From Escherichia phage ZX4221: a stretch of 64,000 nt of DNA. The stretch lies in sequence record OR498728.1; one strand, given 5' to 3'. Below, piece after piece: positions 9,462-54,757 of the stretch. Positions within the stretch are counted from its first letter, which is position 1. Every line of letters starts with the position of its first letter. Both the position numbers and the translations under genes were made by a program. The notes beneath the pieces were generated by a model. It made no database searches, was not told where the DNA came from, and saw only the letters and a program-made list of their open reading frames with translations.

Positions 9462-9702
9462 AGATAATCCTCTTGTCTTCTGTAATTTTGAAAGAACAGG
9501 TACAGACCAATTTCAGAGGATGAATAGTAGAGTGACTCTACCCTTTTTGATTCCTTACAGTGATTGGTATTTTTACCTTTCTTCGGGTTGTTTGATTTTC
9601 TCATTAAGTCTCCTTTGTAGAACAAGGCAGACCTACAGCTTTAAGTAAGATGGTACAGTAATCCATACAACAAGTCAAGAACTATTGCAAGTTAAAAAAG
9701 TT

Positions 9703-9727
9703 GTTGACAAAGGACTTGACAAGGTGT
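9703..9727. promoter_or_regulatory. Conserved double TTGACAA motif (copy 1) in divergent switch region
   Basis: GTTGACAAAGGACTTGACAAGGTGT; near-identical copy at 52310..52334; spacing to any -10 is not canonical. Confidence 0.45.
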
Positions 9728-9785
9728 AGGCTTATAAATACTTAGAAGATAACTTAAAAGGTTCCTCTAAAAAGGCTATTTAAAC

Positions 9786-9805
9786 AGATATCTTTCTGGA
9801 TATCT
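9786..9805. promoter_or_regulatory. Inverted repeat AGATATC-N6-GATATCT, operator-like
   Basis: Perfect 7 bp arms seen directly, ~50 bp upstream of CDS 9854. Confidence 0.35.
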
Positions 9806-9853
9806 ATCTTTTATCTTAAAAGCCTTTTAAGAGGTCTTATAAGAGGCATACCA

Positions 9854-12128: not shown

Positions 12129-12139
12129 TCATTAAGAAT

Positions 12140-12216: not shown

Positions 12217-12222
12217 ATTTTG

Positions 12223-12283
12223 CAGAAGACCGTATTCAGCAACAAACTACTTTTTGCGGATAAAAGAAAAAAACACGGTCTGG
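12223..12283 (+). ncRNA. Stem-closed structured element B (same family)
   Basis: 5' CAGAAGACCGT pairs with 3' ACGGTCTGG (7 bp); same 5' box as element A. Confidence 0.4.
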
Positions 12284-12294
12284 CAATGTATTAA

Positions 12295-12371
12295 GGTTAG
12301 GAAGCACATAAGGTATGTGCGGTCGCCTGTTAAGCGAATGGCACAGGGTTCGAATCCCTGACTAACCGCCA
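12295..12371 (+). tRNA. tRNA-Asn (anticodon GTT)
   Basis: D-stem GCAC/GTGC, anticodon loop CTGTTAA, T-arm CAGGG-TTCGAAT-CCCTG, acceptor GGTTAGG/ACTAACC, CCA encoded. Confidence 0.7.
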
Positions 12372-12380
12372 AATTTAAAT

Positions 12381-12468
12381 GTGTCGTTATCCCGTAGATG
12401 GTAGCGGTGGGGACTGTAAATCCCTTGTCATTGAGACTCGGTAGGTTCGACTCCTACACGGCACACCA
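12381..12468 (+). tRNA. tRNA-Tyr (anticodon GTA), long variable arm
   Basis: 88 nt; acceptor GTGTCGT/ACGGCAC, anticodon stem GGGGA/TCCCT loop CTGTAAA, T-arm GTAGG-TTCGACT-CCTAC, CCA encoded. Confidence 0.7.
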
Positions 12469-12474
12469 AATAAA

Positions 12475-12552
12475 GGTTATGTAGTTTAATCTGGTTAAAA
12501 TACTCCCCTGTCACGGGAGATGATGAGGGTTCAAATCCCTTCGTAACCGCCA
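12475..12552 (+). tRNA. tRNA-Asp (anticodon GTC)
   Basis: Anticodon stem CTCCC/GGGAG perfect, loop CTGTCAC, T-loop TTCAAAT, acceptor GGTTATG/CGTAACC, CCA encoded. Confidence 0.75.
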
Positions 12553-12639
12553 AATTATAATAAGTATTTCAAGATGATGTTTTGAGAGGGCTATTTAGCC
12601 CCTCCCTTAAAGAGTTCTTACGAGTATTCTTTAAAGGAG

Positions 12640-12713
12640 CAGAAGACCAAATGCAGCAAGAATGTATGAAATTTCAAGCCAATTTAATTTTGAAAATTTA
12701 AACTTGGTCTGGC
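12640..12713 (+). ncRNA. Stem-closed structured element C (same family)
   Basis: 5' CAGAAGACCAA ... 3' TTGGTCTGG; inner hairpin AAATTTCAA/TTGAAATTT. Confidence 0.4.
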
Positions 12714-12725
12714 TCAACAAATTTA

Positions 12726-12857
12726 CAGAAGACCGTTTACAGCAAAACTTAAACAATCTATTTCTCCGGTAAAGAAAAGGCGAAGGTTCGATTCCTTCAC
12801 TCGGCAGATGTCGAGTTGGTGTAATGGTAGCACTTAAGATGATAAACAACGGTCTGG
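12726..12857 (+). ncRNA. Stem-closed structured element D enclosing a circularly permuted tRNA-like module; Y-RNA (YrlA-type) candidate
   Basis: Outer 8 bp stem AGACCGTT/AACGGTCT; inside, in order: anticodon-like arm TTTCT-CCGGTAA-AGAAA, T-arm GAAGG-TTCGATT-CCTTC, ACTCGGC-A-GAT-GTCGAGT acceptor hairpin, D-arm GTGT-AATGGTA-GCAC. Confidence 0.5.
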
Positions 12858-12860
12858 TAA

Positions 12861-12999
12861 TTATCTTTGTAGATAAGTTATTAAGCTTCCCTGTGAGTAT
12901 GCGACCACAAAGGTGAAAGGGTAGATTCTAGATTTAACCCGAAAAGACACATCGCTACAGACCTTAAGCAAGTCTGGGTAGCTTATCTACAAAGATAAT
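12861..12999 (+). ncRNA. Structured element bounded by a perfect 17 bp inverted repeat
   Basis: TTATCTTTGTAGATAAG (12861-77) and its exact reverse complement (12983-99) enclose ~105 nt with internal hairpins. Confidence 0.4.
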
Positions 13000-13004
13000 T
13001 TAAT

Positions 13005-13080
13005 GGAAGTGTAGCAGAATGGTGATGCGGCAGACTTTTAATCTGACAGGCGATGGGTTCGAATCCCTCCACTTCTACCA
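13005..13080 (+). tRNA. tRNA-Lys (anticodon TTT)
   Basis: Acceptor GGAAGTG/CACTTCT, anticodon loop CTTTTAA, T-loop TTCGAAT with imperfect T-stem ATGGG/CCCTC, CCA encoded. Confidence 0.6.
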
Positions 13081-13084
13081 ATAT

Positions 13085-13161
13085 GGTTCAGTCGCAGATA
13101 AGGTAATGCAGGGGTTTCATAAGCCCTATGAATGTGGGTTCGATTCCCATCTGAACCTCCA
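13085..13161 (+). tRNA. tRNA-Met (anticodon CAT), copy 2 (initiator, elongator or Ile-lysidine not resolved)
   Basis: Acceptor GGTTCAG/CTGAACC perfect, anticodon stem GGGGT/GCCCT loop TTCATAA, T-arm GTGGG-TTCGATT-CCCAT, CCA encoded. Confidence 0.7.
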
Positions 13162-13162
13162 A

Positions 13163-13238
13163 GCTGGTATAGTTAAGAAGGTTATAACACTCCCCTGATA
13201 AGGGAACATCGGTGGTTCGATTCCACCTACCAGTACCA
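13163..13238 (+). tRNA. tRNA-Ile (anticodon GAT)
   Basis: D-stem GTTA/TAAC, anticodon loop CTGATAA, T-arm GGTGG-TTCGATT-CCACC, acceptor GCTGGTA/TACCAGT, CCA encoded. Confidence 0.7.
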
Positions 13239-13253
13239 ATTCCAATAAAGTTG

Positions 13254-13282
13254 TTGACATTGAGATGTGACCACTTTATAGT
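13254..13282 (+). promoter_or_regulatory. Internal sigma70-like promoter within tRNA array
   Basis: TTGACA 13254-59, 17 nt spacer, TATAGT 13277-82. Confidence 0.55.
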
Positions 13283-13574
13283 AACTAAAATACTTCATAA
13301 TATGTATAATTCAAACACCAATACATGAGTGTTAGACGTAACACAATGTGGGGAAATTTGTTGTACATATTCTGAATAGTTTTCGTTGCGTAGCGTCTAT
13401 TTTGCAAACTTAAAATAAATGCAAACGACAATGTTTTTCTGGCAGTAGCTTGATAGGCTAAACACCAGTGAGGTCTTCCAACCCCTCATCAAAGAATTTG
13501 GCGTACTCGCCCACGGTATGATTAATAAGGTGGGCATCTTTAAGGGCTTTTTAAGAGAGTCTTTAAAGATTAAT

Positions 13575-13651
13575 GCACCCTTAGTTCAACTGGACAGAGC
13601 AAATGACTTCTAATCATTGAGTTACAGGTTCGAATCCTGTAGGGTGTGCCA
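13575..13651 (+). tRNA. tRNA-Arg (anticodon TCT)
   Basis: Anticodon stem AATGA/TCATT perfect, loop CTTCTAA, T-arm ACAGG-TTCGAAT-CCTGT, acceptor GCACCCT/AGGGTGT, CCA encoded. Confidence 0.75.
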
Positions 13652-13793
13652 AATAGTTAGCAGATTGCTTAGACGACCTTATCGGGTCTCCGTGTAAGGA
13701 GGTGGTCTGTATCTCATGTTTTCCAGAACATGTAAATAATCTGAGAAGGGGCTTTACAGTGTTGCGAAAATACGGTAAGCTTCGAATTATAGT

Positions 13794-13876
13794 GTGGGAC
13801 GATGTTAAGACTCTAAGGCATGAGCAACGGCCTCCAAAACCGTTTCAAAGGGGTTCAACTCCTCCGTCCCATGCCA
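13794..13876 (+). tRNA. tRNA-Trp-like (anticodon CCA) with atypical extended D-region
   Basis: Acceptor GTGGGAC/GTCCCAT, anticodon arm ACGGC-CTCCAAA-ACCGT, T-loop TTCAACT, CCA encoded; about 8 extra nt between acceptor and D-stem, so canonical fold not achieved by hand. Confidence 0.4.
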
Positions 13877-13889
13877 AAGTCTTATTAGG

Positions 13890-13977
13890 GGTAGGTAGCG
13901 GCTAATGGTAGCCAAACTGTCTTGAAAACAGTTGCCACTGTAGAGATACGGTGAGGGTTCGACTCCTTTACTTACCG
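13890..13977 (+). tRNA. tRNA-Ser (anticodon TGA), long variable arm, CCA not encoded
   Basis: Acceptor GGTAGGT/ACTTACC, 3 bp D-stem, anticodon stem ACTGT/ACAGT perfect with loop CTTGAAA, ~20 nt variable arm, T-loop TTCGACT. Confidence 0.6.
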
Positions 13978-14235
13978 CCTAATAAGATTTTACACCGTCC
14001 ATGCTTGCTCGCATTTTCGGTTTATCCCTCGTGTATTGTCGTACACACTGATAAAGCACCTAGTAGGTGTCACGGAGAAGAGATAATATCAAGCTCTCCA
14101 AAGGTTCTAGTCACCGGATTGAACAAGACTATGCAAAGACCTAAATAGGTCTTTTTAGAGGGCTTCTAAGGTTATTACAGCTTGTTGTGGAACCTTGTTG
14201 CTTAGGTTCTTAGAAGTTCTCTAAAAAGATTTAAT

Positions 14236-14312
14236 GCACCTATAGCCCAACTGGTAGAGGCAGCAGACTTAGAATCTGCTCAGTGTGAGTTCGAATCTCT
14301 CTAGGTGTACCA
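14236..14312 (+). tRNA. tRNA-Leu-type anticodon TAG, class I (short variable arm) architecture
   Basis: 77 nt; acceptor GCACCTA/TAGGTGT, anticodon stem GCAGA/TCTGC perfect, loop CTTAGAA, 5 nt variable loop, discriminator A, CCA encoded. Confidence 0.6.
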
Positions 14313-14319
14313 AATTAAT

Positions 14320-14395
14320 GCAGGTGTAGCAAAATGGTTATGCGGCTGACTCTTAATCAGTAAGACGATGGGTTCAATTCCCTCCACCTGTACCA
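14320..14395 (+). tRNA. tRNA-Lys (anticodon CTT)
   Basis: Paralog of tRNA-Lys(TTT): acceptor GCAGGTG/CACCTGT, anticodon loop CTCTTAA, T-loop TTCAATT with same imperfect T-stem, CCA encoded. Confidence 0.6.
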
Positions 14396-14401
14396 AACAT
14401 T

Positions 14402-14477
14402 GGGGATGTAGTTTACATGGTTAAAACATAAGTTTTGCAAACTTAAGTACAGGGTTCAATTCCCTGCTTCTCCACCA
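14402..14477 (+). tRNA. tRNA-Ala (anticodon TGC)
   Basis: G3:U70 wobble pair present in acceptor stem; anticodon stem TAAGT/ACTTA perfect, loop TTTGCAA; T-arm CAGGG-TTCAATT-CCCTG; CCA encoded. Confidence 0.75.
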
Positions 14478-14483
14478 ATTAGT

Positions 14484-14558
14484 GCATCCATAGTTTAAAC
14501 GGGAAAATTACAGTCTTCCAAACTGAGGTTGAGGGTTCGATTCCCTCTGGATGCTCCA
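14484..14558 (+). tRNA. tRNA-Gly (anticodon TCC)
   Basis: Acceptor GCATCCA/TGGATGC perfect, anticodon loop CTTCCAA, T-arm GAGGG-TTCGATT-CCCTC, CCA encoded. Confidence 0.75.
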
Positions 14559-14565
14559 AATTAAT

Positions 14566-14641
14566 GCTCCTATCGTATAATTGGCTATTACGGTTGCCTT
14601 GTAAGCAACTTATCAGGGTTCGAATCCTTGTGGGAGCACCA
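14566..14641 (+). tRNA. tRNA-Thr (anticodon TGT)
   Basis: Anticodon stem GTTGC/GCAAC perfect, loop CTTGTAA, T-arm CAGGG-TTCGAAT-CCTTG, acceptor GCTCCTA/TGGGAGC, CCA encoded. Confidence 0.75.
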
Positions 14642-14645
14642 ATTC

Positions 14646-14731
14646 AGAGGTCAAGTGAAAGACCGCTGGTGTCAACTGAAGACCGTAACAAATTCCACGG
14701 AGTTGAGTTAGCGGCACAACTTCAGACCTCT
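14646..14731 (+). ncRNA. Structured element E, divergent relative of the CAGAAGACC family
   Basis: Outer stem AGAGGTC/GACCTCT; contains CTGAAGACCGTAACAAATT resembling the family 5' box; nested stems CCGCT/AGCGG and CTGAAG/CTTCAG. Confidence 0.3.
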
Positions 14732-14736
14732 TTCAT

Positions 14737-14811
14737 ACTCGCTTAGTTTATATGGTAAAACATCACCCTTACAAGATGGAGAAAAAGGTTCAAGTCCTTT
14801 AGTGAGTACCA
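14737..14811 (+). tRNA. tRNA-Val (anticodon TAC)
   Basis: D-stem GTTT/AAAC, anticodon loop CTTACAA, T-arm AAAGG-TTCAAGT-CCTTT, acceptor ACTCGCT/AGTGAGT, CCA encoded. Confidence 0.7.
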
Positions 14812-14812
14812 T

Positions 14813-14890
14813 GTTCCAGTATCCCAATTGGCAGAGGATGCAAGCTCAAACCTTGTACTAGTGACGGTTCGAATCCGTCTTGGAACACCA
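14813..14890 (+). tRNA. tRNA-Leu-type anticodon CAA, class I (short variable arm) architecture
   Basis: 78 nt; acceptor GTTCCAG/TTGGAAC, anticodon stem GCAAG/CTTGT, loop CTCAAAC, ~6 nt variable loop, T-arm GACGG-TTCGAAT-CCGTC, discriminator A, CCA encoded. Confidence 0.55.
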
Positions 14891-14895
14891 ATTTT

Positions 14896-14971
14896 GCAGG
14901 ATTAGTTCAAATGGATAGAGCAACAGTCTACGAAGCTGTTAATAGGGGTTCGAATCCCTTATCCTGCGCCA
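14896..14971 (+). tRNA. tRNA-Arg (anticodon ACG)
   Basis: Acceptor GCAGGAT/ATCCTGC perfect, D-stem GTTC/GAGC, anticodon loop CTACGAA, T-loop TTCGAAT, CCA encoded. Confidence 0.75.
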
Positions 14972-14989
14972 GATAAGTAAGAGGAATTT

Positions 14990-15232
14990 ATGCAAACATT
15001 AATCGTCGTTGAACATGAAAATTCCAATAGTATTGAGTTTGTAAGGGTTCCCACTATAGATACCCACATTTTCTTGAAAGTCGGATGGGGATGTGACCCA
15101 ATAAAAGTAGAAAATTTTATTGGTCATTACTTTGGTGGAAGACAACTTAAAAGCGTCAATTTTGAGACAATGTTACCAGAAAACTCAGAAACAAATAATA
15201 ATGTTTATCTCCTTACGAGGATTAGACAATGA
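14990..15232 (+). CDS. hypothetical protein inside tRNA array (80 aa)
   Basis: AAGAGGA Shine-Dalgarno 6 nt before ATG; stop overlaps next start (ATGA). Confidence 0.45.
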   Translation: MQTLIVVEHENSNSIEFVRVPTIDTHIFLKVGWGCDPIKVENFIGHYFGGRQLKSVNFETMLPENSETNNNVYLLTRIRQ

Positions 15233-15786
15233 GATATCTGAAGTATGCTTCATGGATTTTCCTAGCTTTGTTAGACCCATTGGCAGCAACCTTAGCAGTT
15301 ATCTTAGCACCCTTTGTAGTCCCATTCTACAGTGAGAAGAAAGGCCATCTACCTTTTGGATTCAGATGGATGGAGACATATGACAACCCGATTGATGGCG
15401 ATGAAGGTCATATGAAACGATGGGCTAAGATTAGAAAGATTGGTAAGCTCGGTGTCTATATGCAGAGAGTTGGCTGGCTCTGGAGAAACAAAGCTTATAA
15501 CTTCTCTTACCATGTGTTAGGAAGAGATGTAAAAGATGTTACTAAGTGGAAAGGTAATATCAACGTGAGTTCTGACCCTGAAGATAATCAGACAGGTTAT
15601 CTCCTAATGTGGAACAGTAATGCTTGGGGATTATTTGCTTTTATCCCATCAATTAAAATCTTTGGTAAACAATTCTACTGGAGAATTTATGTTGGATGGA
15701 AACTTAAAAGTGTTGTCCCAGAAGAAAGAGCATTCTCAAGGGAAAGAGTTATGTTGGCATTCTTTATTCATCCACTGAGAAAGTAA
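15229..15786 (+). CDS. hypothetical protein with hydrophobic N-terminus inside tRNA array (185 aa)
   Basis: ORF-track ORF; translationally coupled to 14990..15232; N-terminal WIFLALLDPLAATLAVILAPFVVPF looks membrane-associated. Confidence 0.5.
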   Translation: MRYLKYASWIFLALLDPLAATLAVILAPFVVPFYSEKKGHLPFGFRWMETYDNPIDGDEGHMKRWAKIRKIGKLGVYMQRVGWLWRNKAYNFSYHVLGRDVKDVTKWKGNINVSSDPEDNQTGYLLMWNSNAWGLFAFIPSIKIFGKQFYWRIYVGWKLKSVVPEERAFSRERVMLAFFIHPLRK

Positions 15787-15794
15787 AGATTTAA

Positions 15795-15870
15795 AGGGGA
15801 TTAGTTTACAAGGTTAAAACCTCGGTCTTTGAAATCGAAGAAGTTGGTTCAATTCCAACATCCCCCGCCA
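15795..15870 (+). tRNA. tRNA-Gln (anticodon TTG)
   Basis: Anticodon stem TCGGT/ATCGA, loop CTTTGAA, T-arm GTTGG-TTCAATT-CCAAC, A1-C72 mismatch at top of acceptor, discriminator G, CCA encoded. Confidence 0.65.
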
Positions 15871-15872
15871 AT

Positions 15873-15951
15873 GCTCCATTACTCCAATTGGCAGAGAGGC
15901 CAGACTTAAAATCTGTGTTATGTATCGGTTCGAATCCGATATGGAGTACCA
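15873..15951 (+). tRNA. tRNA-Leu-type anticodon TAA, class I (short variable arm) architecture
   Basis: 79 nt; acceptor GCTCCAT/ATGGAGT, anticodon stem CAGA/TCTG, loop CTTAAAA, ~7 nt variable loop, T-arm ATCGG-TTCGAAT-CCGAT perfect, discriminator A, CCA encoded. Confidence 0.55.
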
Positions 15952-15956
15952 AATTT

Positions 15957-16032
15957 AGCGGTATAGCATAACTGGCAATGCAGCAGTCTCTGAAGCTGTC
16001 TTATTAAGGTTCAAATCCTTATGCCGCTGCCA
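15957..16032 (+). tRNA. tRNA-Gln (anticodon CTG)
   Basis: Acceptor AGCGGTA/TGCCGCT, D-stem GCAT/ATGC, anticodon loop CTCTGAA, T-arm TAAGG-TTCAAAT-CCTTA, discriminator G, CCA encoded. Confidence 0.65.
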
Positions 16033-16063
16033 CTTCTAAGGGTTCTTACGAGAGTCCTTAAAT

Positions 16064-16139
16064 GTGGCCTTATCATAAATGGTAATGACCCATGCTGTGA
16101 ACATGGTCTATACGGGTTCAAATCCCGTAGGTCACCCCA
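16064..16139 (+). tRNA. tRNA-His (anticodon GTG)
   Basis: Anticodon stem CCATG/CATGG perfect, loop CTGTGAA, D-stem TCAT/ATGA, T-arm ACGGG-TTCAAAT-CCCGT, discriminator C; no encoded G-1 (preceding base is T). Confidence 0.7.
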
Positions 16140-16145
16140 ATTTAT

Positions 16146-16221
16146 AGTCCAAGTAGCTTATATGGTTAAAGCGCGTGTCTGAAAAACATGAGAAGAGGGT
16201 TCAAATCCCACTGGACTACCA
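16146..16221 (+). tRNA. tRNA-Phe (anticodon GAA), irregular acceptor/linker geometry
   Basis: Anticodon stem CGTGT/ACATG, loop CTGAAAA, D-stem GCTT/AAGC, T-loop TTCAAAT; acceptor pairs only as 6 bp or with a 4 nt linker to the D-stem; boundaries uncertain. Confidence 0.55.
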
Positions 16222-16237
16222 ATTTCAAAGGTGCTTA

Positions 16238-16972
16238 ATGAAAGAGATGACAGAACAAGGTAAGGAGATTTTTAATCTCTTAAAAACCGGTAGAGGGTTT
16301 TCTAATCCCCTTATTACTGGTGCAGCAGTTCTCGGTGGAACCGTAGCTGCCTCTACATCACTTGTAAGCTCTATTAGCTCTGTAACAGACCCTACAATAA
16401 AGGATAAGCTTATTGCTGCTGGACTTACAACAGTTCTGCTTAACAGCTTTACAACGAGTCTGACAAGCACTACATCAACCACTAAGACACTGACAGATTA
16501 TGGTCAAAAGTCCATTGATGAGTTTTCATCACGTATGCAGGTAGCAAAAGGATATTCCAATGTTATGGGTGCAGCAGGAGAACAAGTCGGTTGTACACCA
16601 TTTAGTGGTATTATGGGTGTTGCTACAGAATATGGTCAAAAAGCTATTGACACAATTAACAGTGCACTAGATGGTGTTAATGATGTGTTAAGTGACTTAC
16701 AAGATGCTATTGATGAAGGTCTTGATACTATTTCTGATTTAGCTAACCAAGCTGTTAGCAAGATTAATGAAGGTATCTCGAAGATTACAGCTTATGCAGA
16801 TGAAGTTGTGCAGATGATTGAAGAAGAAGCTGCCCTTATTGCAGAGTACCTTAAAACGAATATCAATGGGTTCTTAGCAGGTATCTTACCAGACTGGTTT
16901 GATGATGCTTGTAAAACTGGTGTAATTGATACTATTGCAACACCAGAAATGAAGAACGCATTACAGAAATAA
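16238..16972 (+). CDS. hypothetical Ser/Thr-rich protein (244 aa)
   Basis: ORF-track ORF trimmed to first ATG with RBS (AAAGG) that does not overlap tRNA-Phe. Confidence 0.5.
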   Translation: MKEMTEQGKEIFNLLKTGRGFSNPLITGAAVLGGTVAASTSLVSSISSVTDPTIKDKLIAAGLTTVLLNSFTTSLTSTTSTTKTLTDYGQKSIDEFSSRMQVAKGYSNVMGAAGEQVGCTPFSGIMGVATEYGQKAIDTINSALDGVNDVLSDLQDAIDEGLDTISDLANQAVSKINEGISKITAYADEVVQMIEEEAALIAEYLKTNINGFLAGILPDWFDDACKTGVIDTIATPEMKNALQK

Positions 16973-16973
16973 T

Positions 16974-17066
16974 GGAAGATTAACCCTAAAAGGTAAGGGA
17001 GCAGTTTGCTAAACTGCCAGTAGCTGAGAAATCGGTGTACCAGTTCAAGTCTGGTATCTTCCTCCA
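16974..17066 (+). tRNA. tRNA-Ser (anticodon GCT), long variable arm
   Basis: 93 nt; acceptor GGAAGAT/ATCTTCC perfect, anticodon stem GCAGT/ACTGC perfect, loop TTGCTAA, T-arm ACCAG-TTCAAGT-CTGGT, CCA encoded. Confidence 0.75.
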
Positions 17067-17070
17067 ATTT

Positions 17071-17146
17071 GAATCCGTGACAGAAATGGCTATGTGCCTG
17101 TCTGCAAAACAGGTTTATAAGGGTTCGAGTCCCTTCGGATTCTCCA
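17071..17146 (+). tRNA. tRNA-Cys (anticodon GCA)
   Basis: Acceptor GAATCCG/CGGATTC perfect, anticodon stem CCTGT/ACAGG perfect, loop CTGCAAA, T-arm AAGGG-TTCGAGT-CCCTT, CCA encoded. Confidence 0.75.
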
Positions 17147-43912: not shown

Positions 43913-44242
43913 TTAATCTGCCAGCCTTAAATTAAAATTAACACCAAATTTTTCGCATACTTCCAACATATACTCAAGGGAGACATTACCAGTGAGGTGG
44001 ATTATGTTGGATACACGAGCCTGAGAGATACCACAAATTTTAGCAACTTGCTCTTGGGAAAGACCTCTGGATTTAATCTCTCTCTTAAAACGATGTGCAA
44101 CGAAATCTCTCATTTCGTCTACATCCATTGGACAAACATAACTCTCCATTTCAGCCTCTCTGTCAGCCTCCCAATCATCTTGTGGAGCATAAGGGTCAAA
44201 AACCTCATTCATCTTTCTTCTTCCGTTTGCGTGAAGTATCAA
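43913..44242 (-). CDS. helix-turn-helix DNA-binding protein (XRE-like)
   Basis: GLSQEQVAKICGISQARVSNI is a typical HTH signature. Confidence 0.6.
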   Translation of the reverse strand: MILHANGRRKMNEVFDPYAPQDDWEADREAEMESYVCPMDVDEMRDFVAHRFKREIKSRGLSQEQVAKICGISQARVSNIIHLTGNVSLEYMLEVCEKFGVNFNLRLAD

Positions 44243-44802: not shown

Positions 44803-44917
44803 AATGACCTCAAAGTTATATTAAATTTTGTATTACATTGAGTATAAAAATAAGCTATAACACCTGACTTGTCAACAGACTTTATAGCTTATTTGGCAGA
44901 TTTTTTATAAGGTTACT

Positions 44918-45291
44918 GCCATCCTTCCATACCAAACCTCACCTGACCTCGCCTAACCCTACCTTACCCCACCATACAGCACCTTATTAAAACACCCTGT
45001 TTAAAGACCTTTTAAAAAGGTAAGTCTCATTTTAATGTAGCTGAGACTAACTACCCATACCTCACCCTACCAGACCCTACCAGACCAGACCTTACCCTAC
45101 CAGACCCTACCGAACATCACTTAAAAACCCTCTTAGAAGACTCTTAAGTGATGTAATCGAATTTTAATGTAGCTCCGATTAACTACCCATACCTCACCTC
45201 ACCCAACCATACCATGCCTTGCCAGACCGCACCTTACCTCATTAAAAGACCCTCTTAAAAGACCTTTTAAAAAGGAGCCTCCGAAGAGGCT
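44918..45291. repeat. Composite intergenic repeat block I: three units of a pentamer-periodic CC tract (NNACC)n plus a conserved hairpin module
   Basis: Tracts such as ATACC TCACC CTACC AGACC CTACC AGACC AGACC TTACC...; conserved modules TTAAAAGACCCTCTTAAAGACCTTTTAAAAAG, GTCTCATTTTAATGTAGCTGAGAC and ATCACTTAA...TTAAGTGAT recur here and at 46428..46730. Confidence 0.7.
45265..45291 (-). terminator. Rho-independent terminator downstream of CDS 45303..45743
   Basis: Minus strand AGCCTC-TTCG-GAGGCT hairpin followed by CCTTTTTAAAAGG. Confidence 0.6.
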
Positions 45292-45302
45292 ACCTAGTCA
45301 AC

Positions 45303-49550: not shown

Positions 49551-52250
49551 TTAGTGTACTTCAAGCCAGCTTTTGCCAACCTTACCAGTACCTGTAACAA
49601 GCGTTTCTTTCTTAAGACCTAAGTTTTTAGAAGCTTGTCCATAATACCAGTCAGTAACTGCTTTCACATCTGCCGTCATACTCTCTGGACATTCCCAACT
49701 CGTCTCGTCGTGATATGCGCAGAGCAAACGAGCACCAATAGCTGGTTGACGACCATTCAACTTCATCAAACCTTCGTCAATCATACGACGACAAGCAAGG
49801 TTAATCGCCTCATTTTGAATCTGAGCCTCTGAACCCATTAGCAAATAATTCAATAACTTATGTGGAGATTTACACCACAACCAAGCTCCAGCAACCCTTA
49901 CAAAACCCCCTTTAGAGATTGCAGCAGTTTTACCAAACACCTCTTCAAGTGCCTTTTTAGTTGCTTTGTAGTCAGCTTCCAAGTCATCTAGCAACTTCTT
50001 AATTTTAGGCAAACGAATAAAGTAAGTCTGTTTAGTCAGTGCACCTTCCTGAGTAGTTGCAGCTTTAATCGTCTTAGCAAACTTCTCATCACCTGCACCG
50101 AACAGTAGTGCATAGATACCATTCTTAGCTTTCTTACGGCCCTTGCTAATCTCATGGAGAAGGTTCTCATCCTGAGTAGCTCGACAAGTCAAGATATCCT
50201 GCTCATCATTCAAGCTAAAGTAAATACTGTTCAGTGTGTGTGCATCAGTCCCTGAATAGACAACGTAAAGGTCGTTCTCAGAGTCATAGCGAAGGTACTT
50301 ATCAATCTCTGGGTTGAGGTACTCATCAAAGTGTTTGCAGTAATAGCGTCCATCTTCTTGACGAATAAACTCAATCTCTTCTTTACCTTGCGTTACCGCT
50401 TTGGTGAAGTCTTTGTCACCCATAAAGTTACAAAGAAGAACTAGCTGGGCTGAGTTCATGTCTACAGAGACAACGTTAGTACCTTCCTCACAAATCCATA
50501 CTGCCCTCATTGGTTCCCCATAGACAGCAGCACCAGACGGTACGTTTACAATACCATACTGTGTCATACGTCCAGTTGAAGTACCAAATACCATTGCACC
50601 AGCACTAAGGCGACCATCTGGACGAATCTGGTTCAACCAACCTTTTTCATCATCCTTTGAGTTCTCAATAGTTCTGCGTCGGTGCATCAAGGTATAGTAC
50701 TTAGCAATCTTCTGTCCAAGCTCACCTTCAATCGTATCATAAGATGATTCAGTAAGTTTTGGTGAAGTACGGATTAAGCAAGGCTCAAGCAAATCTGTGT
50801 ACTTCTTCACAGACCAGTTATGCTCAATGTATTGGACACCTTCATGTTCAACATAACTCAAACCACACCGTTCAACCATCTCCTGCCACTTAGGATGCTT
50901 GGTAATCATCTTTTTGTTGTCTTTGAAACGACAAACCTTAACAGGACGACCATCTGAGTCTTTCTTGTAGTTCCAGTCATCTGGAATCCAACCAACTGAT
51001 TTCAAGTAGTCTTTAACAACTGCTACCTGAGTCATACGAGAAACTTCGAACTCAATTGGTGTATATGGTGCATCAATCAAACCTGTGTAGCGACTTGACT
51101 CAAGTTCAAAGTGGTTAACAACATGACTGTTATAGTACTTCACAGTCTTAACTGTTTTTACTGGCTTCCAGTCTTTGCACTTCTTACCAATCTTTGCATT
51201 CAACTCATTGCAAATTGCACGAGCATCCTTCATTGCTACAAAACCTTCCTTGTACTCTTCACCAGTTACAGAGTTGGTTGGGGTATAGCAATTCCGCTTT
51301 TCAATGTTAAAAATCTTGGTAGTTGGTTTACCAAATGGCTTGATTTCATATGTCTGCATCTCACCGTTACGTACCTGTTGACGATACTTTGTCTTAGGGT
51401 ACTTGGTAATTCTTTTCAGTCCATCTGCATGACCAAACGCTTCAACATACTCATTCCAAGCTTTTGCAAACTCTTCTCCAGTAACTTTACCTTTGGTTTT
51501 AATAGTTGGAGGAAGATGTGGTTCAACTTCTGAAGCAAGCTCATTAGTCAACTTGTCAAGTTCCTTTACATGGAACTCCATAAGCTCTTTATCAGCTTTC
51601 CAACCATTGATAGCCTGTTGACTCATCCAGAAAGATGTTTCTTTAGCTCGCATGTAGGTTTCATAAGTATCTACGCCACACTTCTTCAGCTTGAGATATT
51701 CATTATCCAGTGCACGTTTAGTTTTGGCGTTAATACGAATATCCTCTACGACACGAGTGAAGATTTCTGCATTCCACACACCCCAATGTTCAATCTCTGG
51801 TTTACGTACACCAACACGAGCACCCCATGCTGCCAAGCCATGAGCACCTTTATAGCCCTTTGGAGTTGGTCTATCCATCCACTGAACACGAGACTGGATA
51901 AGAGAATCCTGAAAGAAATTACTCCACGGCTTACACTTTGGATTATCAAAGTTCCATAAATCAGGTGCAATGTGATTGAAAACCCACCAGTCATAACCCA
52001 GACCATTATGGATGCAAAGTCGTTTTGCCTTTAACGCAAACTCAATACCTTCACGCAAACCACCCTTGATGTACTTGGTGTATTTGTGACCGAGGATAGG
52101 CTCATCTGTAAAGACCCATACAGGTGGCTCTTCATCGTCAGATTTATAGTCTGCGAAAGCCATTACGTGCACTTTAGTGAACTCAAGGAGTAAACCATCA
52201 GTTTCTGTATCACCAACTAAATGTAAGTTTTTAAAATCTACGTTTTCCAT
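49551..52250 (-). CDS. DNA polymerase, family A, with 3'-5' exonuclease domain
   Basis: N-terminal DTETDGL (exo motif I); VDMNSAQLVLL (motif A-like); KNGIYALLFGAG (motif B-like); YHDE (motif C); start set to ATG following AGAGGGAG RBS. Confidence 0.85.
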   Translation of the reverse strand: MENVDFKNLHLVGDTETDGLLLEFTKVHVMAFADYKSDDEEPPVWVFTDEPILGHKYTKYIKGGLREGIEFALKAKRLCIHNGLGYDWWVFNHIAPDLWNFDNPKCKPWSNFFQDSLIQSRVQWMDRPTPKGYKGAHGLAAWGARVGVRKPEIEHWGVWNAEIFTRVVEDIRINAKTKRALDNEYLKLKKCGVDTYETYMRAKETSFWMSQQAINGWKADKELMEFHVKELDKLTNELASEVEPHLPPTIKTKGKVTGEEFAKAWNEYVEAFGHADGLKRITKYPKTKYRQQVRNGEMQTYEIKPFGKPTTKIFNIEKRNCYTPTNSVTGEEYKEGFVAMKDARAICNELNAKIGKKCKDWKPVKTVKTVKYYNSHVVNHFELESSRYTGLIDAPYTPIEFEVSRMTQVAVVKDYLKSVGWIPDDWNYKKDSDGRPVKVCRFKDNKKMITKHPKWQEMVERCGLSYVEHEGVQYIEHNWSVKKYTDLLEPCLIRTSPKLTESSYDTIEGELGQKIAKYYTLMHRRRTIENSKDDEKGWLNQIRPDGRLSAGAMVFGTSTGRMTQYGIVNVPSGAAVYGEPMRAVWICEEGTNVVSVDMNSAQLVLLCNFMGDKDFTKAVTQGKEEIEFIRQEDGRYYCKHFDEYLNPEIDKYLRYDSENDLYVVYSGTDAHTLNSIYFSLNDEQDILTCRATQDENLLHEISKGRKKAKNGIYALLFGAGDEKFAKTIKAATTQEGALTKQTYFIRLPKIKKLLDDLEADYKATKKALEEVFGKTAAISKGGFVRVAGAWLWCKSPHKLLNYLLMGSEAQIQNEAINLACRRMIDEGLMKLNGRQPAIGARLLCAYHDETSWECPESMTADVKAVTDWYYGQASKNLGLKKETLVTGTGKVGKSWLEVH

Positions 52251-52309
52251 TTTTACTCCCTCTAAAATCATTAACCTCATACATTACTGCAAAAAATTAT
52301 AAAAAGCAA

Positions 52310-52334
52310 GTTGACAATGTACTTGACAAGGTGT
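52310..52334. promoter_or_regulatory. Conserved double TTGACAA motif (copy 2) in divergent switch region
   Basis: GTTGACAATGTACTTGACAAGGTGT; matches 9703..9727 at 22 of 25 positions. Confidence 0.45.
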
Positions 52335-52422
52335 TAATCTTTGCGAAGTGGGTTTTTACTTAAAAGGTTACTTAACAGTTTAACTATACAGATACTTTAA
52401 AACTCTTAAAAGATTATTTAAT

Positions 52423-52464
52423 AGCTTTTAAAAAGCTTTAAAGTATAACGTATAGAATACGTTA
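52423..52464. promoter_or_regulatory. Two operator-like palindromes upstream of the rightward replication module
   Basis: AGCTTTTAAAAAGCT (perfect 15 bp palindrome) and TAACGTA-TAGAA-TACGTTA (7 bp arms). Confidence 0.35.
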
Positions 52465-52507
52465 AGATAAAAGATTAAAACTTAATAGTTACTTAAAAGA
52501 GGCTTAC

Positions 52508-52930
52508 ATGCAGAAAATGTTTGTTCACCCAGACATAGCTGACTTTGTTAGAGCTTTGCAGAAGTTGGAAGAACTTGACATTGCTGCTCAACGGGAATAT
52601 GCTCACCATCACAGGAGAATGGTTGATATACAACATGAAATAGAGTTGTCTGAAAACTATGAAGATGACTTAAAATGCTCTGTATTTGAGCATATGAAAG
52701 ATGTTGCTACAGCGAGACGTAAAGCTAAAGACACAGTTGCTTTACTAGATTCTCTTAAAAAGAGGTTGCAAAGTGGTACAGACCTGTGTAATCTAGCGTC
52801 ACTGATTAATGATGTTGAAACTTCTTGGGATAGACATTACTATCCACGTTCTGAAAAGACACTTGACTTTTCTTCATCCGAAAACTTAAAATGTTCTAGA
52901 AAGAAACTTAACCAACTGAGAGAGAAATAA
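52508..52930 (+). CDS. hypothetical protein (140 aa)
   Basis: ORF-track ORF, AAAGAGG RBS. Confidence 0.5.
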   Translation: MQKMFVHPDIADFVRALQKLEELDIAAQREYAHHHRRMVDIQHEIELSENYEDDLKCSVFEHMKDVATARRKAKDTVALLDSLKKRLQSGTDLCNLASLINDVETSWDRHYYPRSEKTLDFSSSENLKCSRKKLNQLREK

Positions 52931-52931
52931 T

Positions 52932-53744
52932 ATGAACACTACTGTAGACCAAATGCTTAAAGAAAAAGGTATTGACGAAGCATTCTTAATCAATGCCGTA
53001 GAAAGCATGGCTATGATTCTTCGTGGAAACAACTACACAGAACGGTTTATGCCTGCAAGCTATAACTTGCCTAAAGACAAGTCTGATAACGGTGCTTTTG
53101 CAGAACAGGTTAACATGATGTTGACAGACACTTCACTAGCTCTGGCATCTATCGCTGTTGGTGTTGACGCACTTGCTGAGTTCATTTTTTATGAAATGCA
53201 AAAGAATGACTATATCAGGATGTCAGACGAAAATAAAGAGCTGTTGCTGACTCAGGATAATGATTCCCTTATTGATACAATCATTGCATCAACAAGTGCT
53301 GTTATGGCTGCTCTTGAGAAGCGCATGGAAGAGAAGCTTTCACGATATGAAAAGTTTGATTGGGGTGTAGAAGAGTTAACCCCACGAATCAGAGAGATTA
53401 TCCAGCAAACTAAAGAGTCTTTAGCAGAAGCTGTGAAAGATGATTCTGTAGCTGATGTAGAACCACTACAGGTGAAGGTCGCTCTGATGATTCCAGCTAT
53501 TTCTACAATGATGAATATCGTTGCACTAATCCAACTTGCTCAGATGTTGGGTGTAACCATTGAGTTCGTTGAGGAGATGACTGGTGGTGTCAGTATGCAA
53601 GCAATCAATGATGTTTTGGTAAACATTGGTGCTTCAATCATTGAAGAGAAGCTTCGCATTCACTTTGGTGACGATTTTGTGAAGCAAGTCTCAGCTATGG
53701 CTGAAAAAGAGCACTCACAAATTACTAGTGAACAACTTCACTAA
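52932..53744 (+). CDS. hypothetical protein (270 aa)
   Basis: ORF-track ORF. Confidence 0.5.
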   Translation: MNTTVDQMLKEKGIDEAFLINAVESMAMILRGNNYTERFMPASYNLPKDKSDNGAFAEQVNMMLTDTSLALASIAVGVDALAEFIFYEMQKNDYIRMSDENKELLLTQDNDSLIDTIIASTSAVMAALEKRMEEKLSRYEKFDWGVEELTPRIREIIQQTKESLAEAVKDDSVADVEPLQVKVALMIPAISTMMNIVALIQLAQMLGVTIEFVEEMTGGVSMQAINDVLVNIGASIIEEKLRIHFGDDFVKQVSAMAEKEHSQITSEQLH

Positions 53745-53763: not shown

Positions 53764-53786
53764 GCCTCCTTAATTGGGGGCTTTTT
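53764..53786 (+). terminator. Rho-independent terminator
   Basis: GCCTCC-TTAATT-GGGGGC hairpin followed by TTTTT; same hairpin sequence as the minus-strand terminator at 1158..1190. Confidence 0.7.
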
Positions 53787-53804
53787 AGTAATTAAGGGGA
53801 TAAA

Positions 53805-54556: not shown

Positions 54557-54757
54557 ATGAAGATGAGAGTAAAAGATAATTTTAAGGTTATTGACCATCG
54601 TTTAGTGGAACTCTCATCTCTTTCCAATGAGGTAATGATTGAACGTCTTAAGAGAGTTGAATCACGAAGGAAAGAGATTGCAGATGAGATTCATGAACTG
54701 GACAAGATTGAAAATGGATTGAAGGCAGAACTACAACGAAGAGGTGCTAATGTCTAA
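54557..54757 (+). CDS. hypothetical small coiled-coil protein (66 aa)
   Basis: ORF-track ORF. Confidence 0.4.
   Translation: MKMRVKDNFKVIDHRLVELSSLSNEVMIERLKRVESRRKEIADEIHELDKIENGLKAELQRRGANV

What the first reader, a model, noticed from the sequence alone, without database searches (positions are those of the whole stretch)
52423..52464. Perfect palindromes in the leader of the rightward replication module
AGCTTTTAAAAAGCT and TAACGTA-TAGAA-TACGTTA lie 45-85 bp upstream of CDS 52508, and a third inverted repeat AGATATC-N6-GATATCT lies upstream of CDS 9854. These are operator-like symmetric sites. An HTH protein is encoded at 43913..44242, though nothing links it to these sites.
Basis: seen in the sequence. 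Interest (0 to 1): 0.35.

Follow-up and report, generated by a model that had tools for sequence, protein, structure and literature searches.

The report
Conserved palindromes in phage early leader
The palindromes are real, conserved parts of a long AT-rich untranslated leader behind a strong host-type early promoter of a Felix O1-like phage, but there is no good evidence that they are repressor operators, and their function remains an ordinary unsolved regulatory question.

Summary
The window is a Felixounavirus (Felix O1-like) genome. All three inverted repeats exist as described. Composition alone does not make them significant: two perfect repeats with arms of 7 bp or more in this 75% AT spacer has P about 0.08.

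Conservation does. The spacer is the local diversity minimum (pi 0.003 against about 0.04 in flanking genes). TAACGTAT-AGA-ATACGTTA keeps its pairing through two compensatory double substitutions in Suspvirus and Mooglevirus.

The repeats lie about 77 to 118 nt downstream of the predicted start of a sigma-70-type promoter (TTGACA-N18-TAATCT). They sit inside a roughly 96-nt imperfect dyad made of a strongly enriched 8-mer, CTTAAnAG. The promoter plus leader cassette occurs exactly twice per genome. The other copy precedes CDS 9854 and carries the third repeat.

The operator reading is only partly supported. The three repeats share no half-site, none recurs in the window, and none overlaps the mapped promoter. 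The HTH protein (43913-44242, minus strand) occurs in the same genera, but its recognition helix does not track the half-site changes.

My best reading is a structured cis-acting early leader. Whether it acts as RNA or as DNA is unresolved. Interest is modest.

The parts
52281..52309 (-). Inferred leftward promoter for the DNA polymerase gene (ATG 52250, SD GAGGGAG). It reads -35 TTGCTT (rc of 52304-52309), 17-bp spacer, -10 TAATGT (rc of 52281-52286). It stands back-to-back with the rightward promoter.
   Evidence: Read from the sequence. AAGCAA is invariant, and the T, A and final T of the -10 are kept (TAGGGT in Mooglevirus) in the 8-genome alignment. This is an inference with no experimental support.
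52300..52340 (+). Rightward sigma-70-type promoter: A-tract, -35 TTGACA 52311-52316, a second TTGACA 52323-52328 inside the 18-bp spacer, and -10 TAATCT 52335-52340. The predicted start is near 52347.
   Evidence: The same site is annotated as a promoter in phage AYO145A. The 24-nt core TTGACA-N6-TTGACAAGGTGT occurs exactly twice in the window, against 0.15 expected, and twice per complete Felixounavirus contig. In contigs with unrelated downstream sequence, the same core is followed at N17 by TATGAT, TACATT or TATCGT.
52347..52507 (+). Untranslated leader of 161 nt, about 25% GC, with no ATG, GTG or TTG in it. It is the local nucleotide-diversity minimum.
   Evidence: Diversity pi is 0.003 at 52408-52607 against about 0.04 in the flanking genes. 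At least 99% identity was found in 176 of 258 phage records. Identity between genera is 0.77-0.79, against 0.56-0.75 for the two downstream genes.
52359..52499 (+). Same-strand array of the 8-mer CTTAAnAG and close variants. Copies start at 52359, 52371, 52384 (CTATACAG), 52405, 52417 (TTTAATAG), 52436 (CTTTAAAG), 52481 and 52492.
   Evidence: There are five CTTAA.AG copies against 0.10 in dinucleotide shuffles of the leader itself (P<0.001). The window-wide count is 58 against 12.9 expected. The array is kept in the leaders of Suspvirus, Mooglevirus, Kolesnikvirus and Pectobacterium phage Arno162.
52371..52466 (.). Imperfect dyad of about 96 nt centred near 52419. The left arm carries CTTAAC, CTATAC, ACTTTAAA and CTTAAAAG. 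The right arm carries their inverted copies. Both reported palindromes lie in the right arm.
   Evidence: The + strand folds as RNA to -23.3 kcal/mol with z -3.93, and 0 of 200 shuffles do as well. The antisense strand gives -27.6 with z -5.84. As DNA the z-score is -3.53. The outer parts degrade in Suspvirus and Mooglevirus.
52423..52437 (.). Palindrome 1, AGCTTTT-A-AAAAGCT. It is the core of a longer 31-bp imperfect palindrome, 52415-52445.
   Evidence: I7. It shows no compensatory change. Two column pairs vary on one side only, giving T.G in 1 and in 3 of the 19 leaders, and one pair is C.A in 3 of 19. As RNA it gives only -3.5 kcal/mol, z -0.41. Look-alike dyads NCTTTTAAAAAGN occur at 45007 and 45263.
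52446..52464 (.). Palindrome 2, TAACGTAT-AGA-ATACGTTA. The centre reads TATAGAAT, which resembles a -10 element.
   Evidence: Two column pairs show changes on both sides (A-T to T-A in 9 versus 10 leaders; C-G to T-A in 4). No cell is broken in the 7 inner pairs. RNAalifold keeps it. As RNA it gives -5.8 kcal/mol, z -2.69. It is unique in the window. The arms are absent in Kolesnikvirus and Arno162, but the core is kept there as TATAAT or TATAGAAT.
52497..52930 (+). Shine-Dalgarno AAGAGG (52497-52502) and CDS 52508-52930, encoding 140 aa of unknown function (PHROG 4039).
   Evidence: The protein is 99-100% identical across Felixounavirus.
53766..53790 (+). Intrinsic-terminator-like hairpin plus T-run after the second gene (52932-53744) and before the dNMP kinase and primase/helicase genes.
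   Evidence: A terminator is annotated at the same place in AYO145A and Michonne.
9690..9853 (+). Paralogous promoter and leader cassette upstream of CDS 9854. It comprises an A-tract, TTGACA 9704-9709, TTGACA 9716-9721, -10 TAGGCT 9727-9732, ACTTAAAAGGTT 9752-9763, the inverted repeat AGATATC-N6-GATATCT 9786-9805, and the palindrome TCTTAAAAG-C-CTTTTAAGA 9814-9832.
   Evidence: It folds to a long hairpin, -28.4 kcal/mol, z -2.79. The third repeat is identical in Suspvirus and Mooglevirus. It is a local diversity minimum, pi 0.002-0.009.
43913..44242 (-). Cro/CI-type HTH_3 protein, 99-109 aa.
   Evidence: Its recognition helix is compared with the palindrome 2 half-site.

Best explanation
The two palindromes are conserved sub-elements of the 161-nt, 75% AT untranslated leader. 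This leader separates a strong host-RNA-polymerase (sigma-70-type) early promoter (TTGACA 52311, N18, TAATCT 52340) from the first gene of the rightward replication module. The leader is built from a repeated 8-mer (CTTAAnAG) arranged as a roughly 96-nt imperfect dyad.

Promoter and leader together form one of two paralogous cassettes per genome. The other drives the operon starting at 9854 and carries the third inverted repeat at the tip of its own long dyad.

I think the most likely mechanism is cis-acting secondary structure in the early transcript. In this view the local hairpin TAACGUAU-AGA-AUACGUUA, or the alternative long irregular hairpin, sets the stability, processing, translation or terminator read-through of the early mRNA. 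The palindromes would not be classical repressor operators.

Shown: the sequence, the conservation, the compensatory changes, the paralogy and the motif enrichment. Inferred: the transcription start, that the element acts as RNA, and which downstream step it controls.
For: - Promoter. The site is annotated as a promoter in a relative. The exact core occurs twice in the window and twice per genome. In contigs with unrelated downstream sequence, good -10 hexamers follow the same core at N17.
- Non-coding leader. It has no start codon and no Rfam match.
- Constraint. The leader is the diversity minimum of a 5.4-kb stretch. The same holds for the paralogous spacer. Identity between genera exceeds that of the downstream genes.
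- Pairing is selected. Palindrome 2 keeps all 7 inner pairs through two double substitutions in 19 distinct leaders. RNAalifold retains it.
- Fit to the long hairpin. Its z-score is -3.93. Most of the few substitutions seen within the genus fall on its unpaired positions (52390, 52402, 52432) or give U.G at 52403. One, C52403G, breaks a pair.
- The paralogous leader also folds into a long hairpin, z -2.79. One of its pairs changes from CCUCU/AGAGG to CUUCU/AGAAG in Suspvirus (read by eye).
- Symmetric changes in both arms occur without any change in the HTH recognition helix. Base pairing explains this more simply than a shift in protein specificity.
- A terminator lies 1.3 kb downstream inside the operon. 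The Felix O1 genome paper states that read-through and temporal control are unexplained (PMC3185647, section 2.5).
Against: - There is no strand asymmetry. The antisense strand folds as well or better, and G.U and A.C mismatches are about equally frequent. The data therefore fit a DNA-level dyad equally well.
- The RNAalifold consensus energy is weak (-14.7 kcal/mol, covariation term -1.2).
- Only two independent compensatory events support palindrome 2, and none supports palindrome 1.
- Near-total sequence invariance, including loops, suggests sequence-specific recognition rather than structure alone.
- The arms of palindrome 2 are missing in Kolesnikvirus and Arno162, although the leader architecture persists there.
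- The transcription start is predicted, not measured.
Confidence: 0.4

Rival explanations
1. DNA-level operator. Palindrome 2, and possibly palindrome 1, is bound as double-stranded DNA by a dimeric phage regulator, the HTH_3 protein of 43913-44242 being the obvious candidate. It would act either as a roadblock about 100 bp downstream of the early promoter or by covering a second promoter whose -10 is the TATAGAAT at the centre of the palindrome. Either way it would shut off or tune the first genes of the replication module.
For: - The site is a 19-bp perfect dyad with half-site centres about 11 bp apart.
- Symmetry is kept through two double substitutions.
- There is no strand bias in folding.
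- An HTH_3 'transcriptional regulator' is present. Its homologues are found in exactly the same 258 records and three genera as the palindrome-bearing leader, and not in the Erwinia or Pectobacterium relatives that lack the arms.
- A -10-like core (TATAGAAT, TATAACAT or TATAAT) is kept at this position in all genera.
- Extreme sequence conservation, including the centre, within Felixounavirus.
Against: - No second copy or half-site pair exists anywhere in 64 kb, including near the HTH gene.
- The three palindromes share no half-site.
- The recognition helix is the same in lineages with ACGTAT and with ATGTAT half-sites.
- No convincing -35 exists for the putative second promoter, and the simple scan did not call it.
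- The co-occurrence amounts to one clade-level event.
Confidence: 0.22
2. The palindromes are by-products of the 8-mer array. What is selected is the array of CTTAAnAG or CTTTAAAG units, which are themselves nearly self-complementary. These would be read by some factor: a phage DNA-binding protein also bound to the 1.66-kb non-coding array, a nucleoid protein on phased A-tracts, or ribosomes/S1 on AU-rich enhancer-like RNA. Perfect local palindromes then arise incidentally where units abut in opposite orientation.
For: - Motif enrichment is far stronger than palindrome enrichment: 5 against 0.10 expected, P<0.001, compared with P about 0.08.
- The array, but not the palindrome arms, is conserved out to Kolesnikvirus and Arno162.
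- Palindrome 1 is essentially CTTTTAAAAAG and has look-alikes at 45007 and 45263.
- The right arm of palindrome 2 read on the minus strand is CTTAACGT, an inverted unit. It changes in step with the distal unit CTTAAC at 52371.
- The same motif family is massively repeated in non-coding window 1-1150.
- Unit spacing is mostly 11-13 nt.
Against: - The left arm of palindrome 2 (TATAACGTAT) is not an array unit, yet it co-varies perfectly with the right arm.
- Phasing is only suggestive and the period differs between genera: 11.0 (P 0.09) against 12.7.
- No factor has been identified.
Confidence: 0.23
3. Transcription-activated replication origin. A strong promoter followed by an AT-rich, easily melted dyad between the DNA polymerase and primase/helicase genes would serve as an origin. 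The analogy is the T7 primary origin (promoters 1.1A/1.1B plus an AT-rich stretch) and T4 origins (a promoter plus an unwinding element). The palindromes would form hairpins in unwound DNA.
For: - The stretch is about 25% GC over 160 bp, directly downstream of a consensus -35 promoter.
- It lies between a family A DNA polymerase gene and a T7 gp4-like primase/helicase gene.
- Dyad symmetry is independent of strand, and the DNA fold z-score is -3.53.
- Conservation is extreme.
- The cumulative GC-skew minimum lies near 52 kb.
Against: - The GC-skew switch coincides with the switch in transcription direction, so it is uninformative.
- A near-identical cassette also precedes the tRNA and structural operon at 9.7 kb.
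- The 1.66-kb non-coding repeat array looks more origin-like.
- No initiator is known, and no experimental origin data were found.
Confidence: 0.1
4. Lambda-like antitermination site (nut or put type). Paralogous leader elements just downstream of the two main early promoters would modify RNA polymerase so that it reads through internal terminators.
For: - There are two paralogous leader elements per genome, each downstream of an early promoter.
- A terminator lies inside the operon.
- CTCTTAAAAG followed by a hairpin loosely recalls the lambda nutL boxA, spacer and boxB arrangement. This is from my own recollection of the lambda sequence and was not tested.
- The published genome paper calls terminator read-through unexplained (PMC3185647).
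Against: - The rrn boxA consensus GCTCTTTAACAA has no match with 2 or fewer mismatches in either leader.
- The hairpin loops (1-3 nt; AGA) are not boxB-like pentaloops.
- The homologous parts of the two leaders do not contain the palindromes.
- No N-like or Q-like protein was identified.
Confidence: 0.05

Closest known systems
Lambda-type Cro/CI operators (OR, OL)
   Same: Both are short dyad-symmetric sites in a divergent early control region of a phage that encodes a Cro/CI-type HTH protein.
   Different: Lambda operators are several related copies sharing a half-site consensus, and they overlap the -35 and -10 elements. Here the three dyads are unrelated in sequence, each is single-copy, and each lies about 80-120 nt downstream of the predicted start. 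The phage is strictly lytic.
Irregular RNase III hairpins of T7 early mRNA, and the structured leader of lambda N
   Same: Both are long imperfect hairpins in host-polymerase early transcripts and are present as paralogous copies. Here the hairpins span about 90-100 nt with z-scores of -3.9 and -2.8.
   Different: No cleavage data exist. The stems are almost entirely A-U. The antisense strand folds as well, so strand-specific RNA selection is not demonstrated.
T7 primary origin (promoters 1.1A/1.1B plus an AT-rich region) and T4 promoter-plus-unwinding-element origins
   Same: A promoter is followed by a very AT-rich stretch next to family A polymerase and gp4-like primase/helicase genes.
   Different: The promoter is a host sigma-70 promoter rather than a phage polymerase promoter. 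A second, paralogous copy sits in front of a non-replication operon. There is no functional evidence.
Iteron-plasmid rep promoters (pSC101, F, P1), where partial inverted iterons form the autoregulatory operator
   Same: A short motif is repeated in one orientation in a large non-coding array (window 1-1150). It also occurs, partly inverted, in the leader of the replication module.
   Different: No initiator is known. The motif copies are degenerate. The same array also occurs in the leader of the tRNA and structural operon.
Lambda nutL/nutR and HK022 putL/putR
   Same: Two paralogous cis elements lie just downstream of the two early promoters, with terminators downstream.
   Different: The boxA consensus is not matched and there is no boxB-like loop. 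No antiterminator protein was identified.

Membership tests
Cro/CI-type repressor operator | Dyad-symmetric site of about 14-20 bp with half-sites one helical turn apart | tested here: met
   Palindrome 2 is 19 bp with 8-bp arms and half-site centres about 11 bp apart.
Cro/CI-type repressor operator | The site overlaps the -35, -10 or start of the regulated promoter | tested here: not met
   Relative to the only well-supported promoter (52311-52340), the palindromes lie at about +77 to +118. Overlap with a hypothetical second promoter (TAGAAT 52453-52458) is possible, but that promoter is not supported by a -35 or by the scan.
Cro/CI-type repressor operator | Several operators share one half-site consensus | tested here: not met
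   The three dyads share no half-site. Each dyad is unique in the 64-kb window.
Cro/CI-type repressor operator | A cognate HTH protein is present and co-distributed with the site | tested here: inconclusive
   An HTH_3 protein is present. It is found in the same 258 records as the leader and is absent from the Erwinia and Pectobacterium relatives. Its recognition helix does not follow the half-site change. Binding cannot be tested with these tools.
Intrinsic (rho-independent) terminator | G+C-rich stem followed by a T/U run | tested here: not met
   No terminator-like site was found in 51800-53000. The stems have 2 to 4 G-C pairs, give -3.5 and -5.8 kcal/mol, and have no T-run.
Lambda-type nut site | boxA consensus sequence | tested here: not met
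   GCTCTTTAACAA with up to 2 mismatches has no match in 52347-52507 or 9740-9853.
Lambda-type nut site | boxB hairpin with a 5-nt GNRA-like loop downstream of boxA | tested here: not met
   Palindrome 1 leaves a 1-nt centre (3 nt if folded as RNA). The loop of palindrome 2 is AGA or AAC.
Lambda-type nut / HK022 put site | Paralogous copies just downstream of the early promoters | tested here: met
   Two cassettes per genome share the promoter core and about 55 nt of leader.
RNase III processing hairpin of phage early mRNA | Irregular double-stranded stem of 20 bp or more in an early transcript | tested here: inconclusive
   The predicted 52371-52466 hairpin has z -3.93, and the 9753-9843 hairpin has z -2.79. 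The antisense strands fold as well, and the outer stem is not conserved between genera. Cleavage cannot be tested here.
Iteron-type origin or autoregulated rep promoter | Array of a short repeated motif plus an AT-rich stretch | tested here: met
   The leader has five CTTAA.AG copies against 0.10 expected. Window 1-1150 has 11 against 0.32. The leader is about 25% GC.
Iteron-type origin or autoregulated rep promoter | An initiator protein binds the repeats, and replication starts there | not testable with these tools
   No initiator was identified. The two downstream proteins have no informative family.
Any curated RNA family (Rfam 15) | Match at the gathering score | tested here: not met
   Only tRNAs pass in the window. 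Nothing better than E 1.4 was found in 52200-52600.

The most novel reading that the evidence does not exclude
The 8-mer family CTTAAnAG / CTTAACAG / CTAACAAG defines a genome-wide cis-element system read by one unidentified factor. It builds this leader, the paralogous leader at 9.7 kb and the 1.66-kb gene-free array at window 1-1150. One version is an origin-and-initiator circuit: the big array would be the origin, and the leader dyads, including the two palindromes, would be autoregulatory sites for the replication and early operons. Another version is an RNA-level system in which the array acts as a decoy for a factor that also binds the two early leaders.
Probability: 0.12. Interest if true: 0.6.

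Novelty: new member of a known kind. Interest (0 to 1): 0.3.

Why it matters
Felix O1-like phages are widely used for Salmonella and E. coli typing, biocontrol and therapy. Even so, the reference genome paper reports no recognisable promoter in this spacer, and says that neither temporal control nor read-through of the many terminators is understood (PMC3185647).

This work adds three things:
- a concrete, testable map of two paralogous early promoter and leader cassettes;
- an inferred back-to-back promoter for the DNA polymerase gene;
- one dyad element with compensatory evolution.

These are natural targets for 5' end mapping, reporter fusions and engineering, for example safe insertion sites or tunable early expression. 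It is not a new kind of biology on present evidence.

Tried and rejected
- Terminator reading. Rejected: no T-run, weak stems, and no hit in the scan.
- Known RNA family. No Rfam match.
- Operator regulon. Window-wide searches for the palindromes, for their half-sites at any spacing, and near the HTH gene found nothing.
- Late-promoter motif built on GTATAGAATA. Not enriched: 5 found against 5.8 expected.
- boxA or nut reading. The consensus is not matched.
- G.U versus A.C asymmetry and sense versus antisense folding, used to decide between RNA and DNA. No asymmetry was found.
- Co-evolution of the HTH recognition helix with the half-site. None was seen.
- Helical phasing of the 8-mers. Only suggestive, and the period is inconsistent between genera.
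- Metagenome scan with AAAAAGCAAGTTGACAA. The pattern was too unspecific. It gave 120 mostly random hits and only one new divergent leader, L211.
- Literature. No transcriptome, 5' end or origin data were found for Felixounavirus. PhageMaP on Bas63 reports gene-level data, with nothing on these spacers in the passages retrieved.
- Pairing of the mRNA 5' end (GUGGG) with the Shine-Dalgarno region in the full-leader fold. It is not conserved in Suspvirus or in L211, by inspection.

Full report
IDENTITY OF THE WINDOW. The 6 kb around the finding matches 261 phage records at 90-97% identity. Almost all are Felixounavirus (Felix O1-like myoviruses, about 88 kb), and the best hit is Escherichia phage HMD-P10 at 97%. 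The finding lies in the 257-bp spacer between the family A DNA polymerase gene and a rightward block. The polymerase gene is on the minus strand, with its ATG at 52250 preceded by GAGGGAG. The rightward block comprises CDS 52508 (140 aa, unknown), CDS 52932 (annotated 'minor tail protein'), a terminator, dNMP kinase, a 66-aa ORF and primase/helicase.

THE OBSERVATION. All three inverted repeats are present as described:
- AGCTTTT-A-AAAAGCT at 52423-52437.
- TAACGTAT-AGA-ATACGTTA at 52446-52464, with 8-bp arms, one more than reported.
- AGATATC-TTTCTG-GATATCT at 9786-9805.

A longer perfect palindrome, TCTTAAAAG-C-CTTTTAAGA at 9814-9832, was missed. The HTH claim is right: ORF 43913-44242 on the minus strand matches HTH_3 and PHROG 1373.

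CHANCE. The window holds 53 perfect inverted repeats (arm 7 bp or more, loop 6 nt or less), against 32 +/- 6 in shuffles. In this 75% AT spacer, 36% of dinucleotide shuffles contain at least one and 7.8% contain at least two. On composition alone the two palindromes are unremarkable. The pair upstream of 9854 is less likely by chance (P 0.014). Neither palindrome recurs: no second copy of palindrome 2 exists within 3 mismatches, and no half-site pair at any spacing. Palindrome 1 has loose look-alikes (ACCTTTTAAAAAGGT at 45007, CCTTTTAAAAAGG at 45263) in another non-coding stretch.

CONSERVATION. Among 22 Felixounavirus sequences, diversity over a 5.4-kb stretch is lowest at 52408-52607 (pi 0.003). 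It is about 0.03-0.06 in the flanking genes. In GenBank, the 281 bp around the spacer are at least 99% identical in 176 of 258 records, whereas the surrounding 6 kb are mostly 90-95% identical. Between genera the leader is 77-79% identical, against 56-75% for the two downstream genes. The spacer upstream of 9854 is likewise a local minimum (pi 0.002-0.009).

COVARIATION. I collected 19 distinct versions of the leader from Felixounavirus, Suspvirus, Mooglevirus and one metagenomic relative.
- Palindrome 2 keeps all seven inner pairs in every sequence. Two positions changed on both sides: A-T to T-A (9 against 10 sequences) and C-G to T-A (4 sequences). The centre changes from AGA to AAC. RNAalifold retains this helix.
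- Palindrome 1 shows no compensatory change. It carries T.G or C.A mismatches in seven sequences.
- The right arm of palindrome 2 also co-varies with a distal CTTAAC at 52371-52376. The variable positions there are the degenerate positions of a repeated motif, so I give this less weight.
- In Kolesnikvirus (Erwinia phages) and Pectobacterium phage Arno162 the arms of both palindromes are absent. A -10-like core is kept at the position of palindrome 2, as TATAAT or TATAGAAT.

LARGER ANATOMY.
- Promoter. A sigma-70-type promoter sits at 52311-52340 (TTGACA, 18 bp, TAATCT) behind an A-tract, and is annotated as such in phage AYO145A. Its 24-nt core TTGACA-N6-TTGACAAGGTGT occurs exactly twice in the window, at 52311 and 9704, against 0.15 expected. 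It also occurs twice in every complete Felixounavirus contig. The same core occurs in viral contigs with unrelated downstream sequence, where TATGAT, TACATT or TATCGT follows at a 17-bp spacing. This fixes the position of the -10.
- Polymerase promoter. A back-to-back promoter for the polymerase gene (TTGCTT, 17 bp, TAATGT on the minus strand) can be inferred from invariant columns. If so, only rightward transcripts cross the palindromes.
- Leader. It is then about 161 nt long, and the palindromes lie at about +77 to +118.
- Paralogy. The first 55 nt or so of the two leaders are homologous (ACTTAAAAGGTT ... ACAGATA). The palindromes lie in the non-homologous distal parts.
- 8-mer array. The leader is built from a same-strand 8-mer, CTTAAnAG. 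It has five strict copies against 0.10 in shuffles of the leader itself (P<0.001) and eight copies with close variants. The array is conserved in all five genus-level groups examined.
- Long dyad. The units are arranged as a roughly 96-nt imperfect dyad (52371-52466) whose right arm contains both palindromes. It folds with z -3.93 as RNA, and the paralogous leader folds into a comparable long hairpin with the third inverted repeat at its tip (z -2.79). Most within-genus substitutions fall on unpaired positions of this model or give a wobble pair.

RNA OR DNA? This could not be settled. The antisense strands fold as well or better (z -5.84 and -2.82). G.U and A.C mismatches are equally common. 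The DNA fold is also significant. The consensus RNA energy is weak.

THE HTH LINK. Homologues of the HTH protein occur in 258 records, with the same taxon breakdown as the records carrying this leader. None was found in Erwinia or Pectobacterium phages. This co-occurrence is compatible with an operator, but it amounts to a single clade-level event. The recognition helix (SQ[A/S]RVSNI) is the same in lineages whose half-site is ACGTAT and in those with ATGTAT. The three palindromes share no half-site, none recurs, and none overlaps the mapped promoter. One repressor acting on all three is therefore not supported. At most palindrome 2 could be a single operator.

OTHER READINGS. The palindromes are not terminators. 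No Rfam family matches. A nut-like reading fails the boxA test, and the loops are not boxB-like. A T7- or T4-like transcription-activated origin is possible, given the AT-rich dyad next to polymerase and primase/helicase genes. Against it stand the second cassette in front of the tRNA and structural operon, and a far more origin-like 1.66-kb repeat array elsewhere.

LITERATURE. The Felix O1 genome paper assumed divergent promoters in this spacer but found no recognisable ones. It states that temporal regulation and terminator read-through are not understood, and its RT-PCR shows the polymerase and neighbouring genes transcribed within 5 min (PMC3185647, section 2.5). I found no 5' end, transcriptome or origin data for the genus.

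VERDICT.
- The operator interpretation is only partly supported.
- The best-supported description is as follows. The palindromes are conserved dyad sub-elements of a structured, motif-built, AT-rich leader. That leader belongs to one of two paralogous early promoter and leader cassettes.
- I put about 0.4 on action as secondary structure in the early transcript and about 0.2 on a DNA operator.
- I put about 0.2 on the palindromes being by-products of the selected 8-mer array.
- I put about 0.1 on an origin function and less on antitermination.
- This is a useful but ordinary regulatory feature of a known phage group.

Noticed in passing
window 1-1150 (continues to about 475 bp before the window start in relatives; L034 2027-3691): A gene-free region of about 1.66 kb lies between two converging operons. 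It is packed with about 30 copies of CTTAACAG, CTAACAAG or TTAACAAG, mostly on the minus strand, with a few inverted copies at window 1-40. It also holds a (TA)n run at 1049-1069 and AT-rich blocks. CTTAA.AG occurs 11 times against 0.32 expected. It lies downstream of the terminator of the leftward operon (about 1155-1190). It is not the physical genome end: the 608-bp terminal repeats of UAB_Phi87 map near window 17.2 kb. It could be an origin, an iteron array or a decoy.
   Followed up: partly
window 44803-45302 (minus-strand sense): A 500-bp gene-free stretch inside the leftward early operon holds at least two repeat units and the start of a third. Each full unit has a TTTTAAAAGG / TAAGAGG block, a G/T-rich run (GGTAGGGTCTGGTAGGG...) and a conserved GGTATGGGTAGTTA...CTACATTAAAAT tail. 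A G+C-rich hairpin resembling a terminator lies at 45276-45291. The stretch may encode small RNAs or processing sites.
   Followed up: no
window 10307-11719 (+) and tRNA cluster 11887-17146: A 471-aa protein with DUF2828, DUF7788 and VWA domains (PHROG 850, 'RNA-binding protein') sits directly upstream of 26 tRNA genes. The PhageMaP preprint (10.1101/2024.10.10.617714) describes a Bas63 protein (gp130) in the same position, directly upstream of the tRNA genes, as Ro60-like and as a counter to the Ppl defence, so this is probably already known. I did not compare the two sequences.
   Followed up: partly
L048, L035, L074, L089; L068, L104, L077, L053, L067; L063 (viral contigs): The exact promoter core A-tract-GTTGACAAnnnnCTTGACAAGGTG-TAnnnT also occurs in metagenomic viral contigs whose downstream sequence is unrelated to either Felixounavirus leader. 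Either the promoter module is shared horizontally or it is a convergent optimum.
   Followed up: partly
Its right arm contains a decoy Shine-Dalgarno-like TAAGAGG upstream of the real one at 9839-9845.
   Followed up: partly
window 54608-54707: A second sharp diversity dip (pi 0.004 against about 0.06 around it) lies at the 3' end of the 66-aa ORF 54557-54757, just before the primase/helicase start at 54744.
   Followed up: no
window 52932-53744: This gene is annotated 'minor tail protein' (PHROG 4251) in relatives. It is the second gene of an early promoter-proximal mini-operon inside the replication module and has no Pfam or NCBIfam match. The annotation looks doubtful.
   Followed up: no
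window 43916-44212 (-): The best PDB sequence hit of the HTH protein is chain 8vd6_A, named 'CAP REPEAT' (E 6e-12, residues 19-71). The next hit is the antitoxin PezA. I did not look into what 8vd6 is.
   Followed up: no
window 9620-9700 (minus strand): A plausible leftward promoter in the other divergent spacer reads TTGACT, 17 bp, TACCAT, followed by a short leader and AAGGAG. Only the rightward units carry the long leader. This was read by eye only.
   Followed up: no
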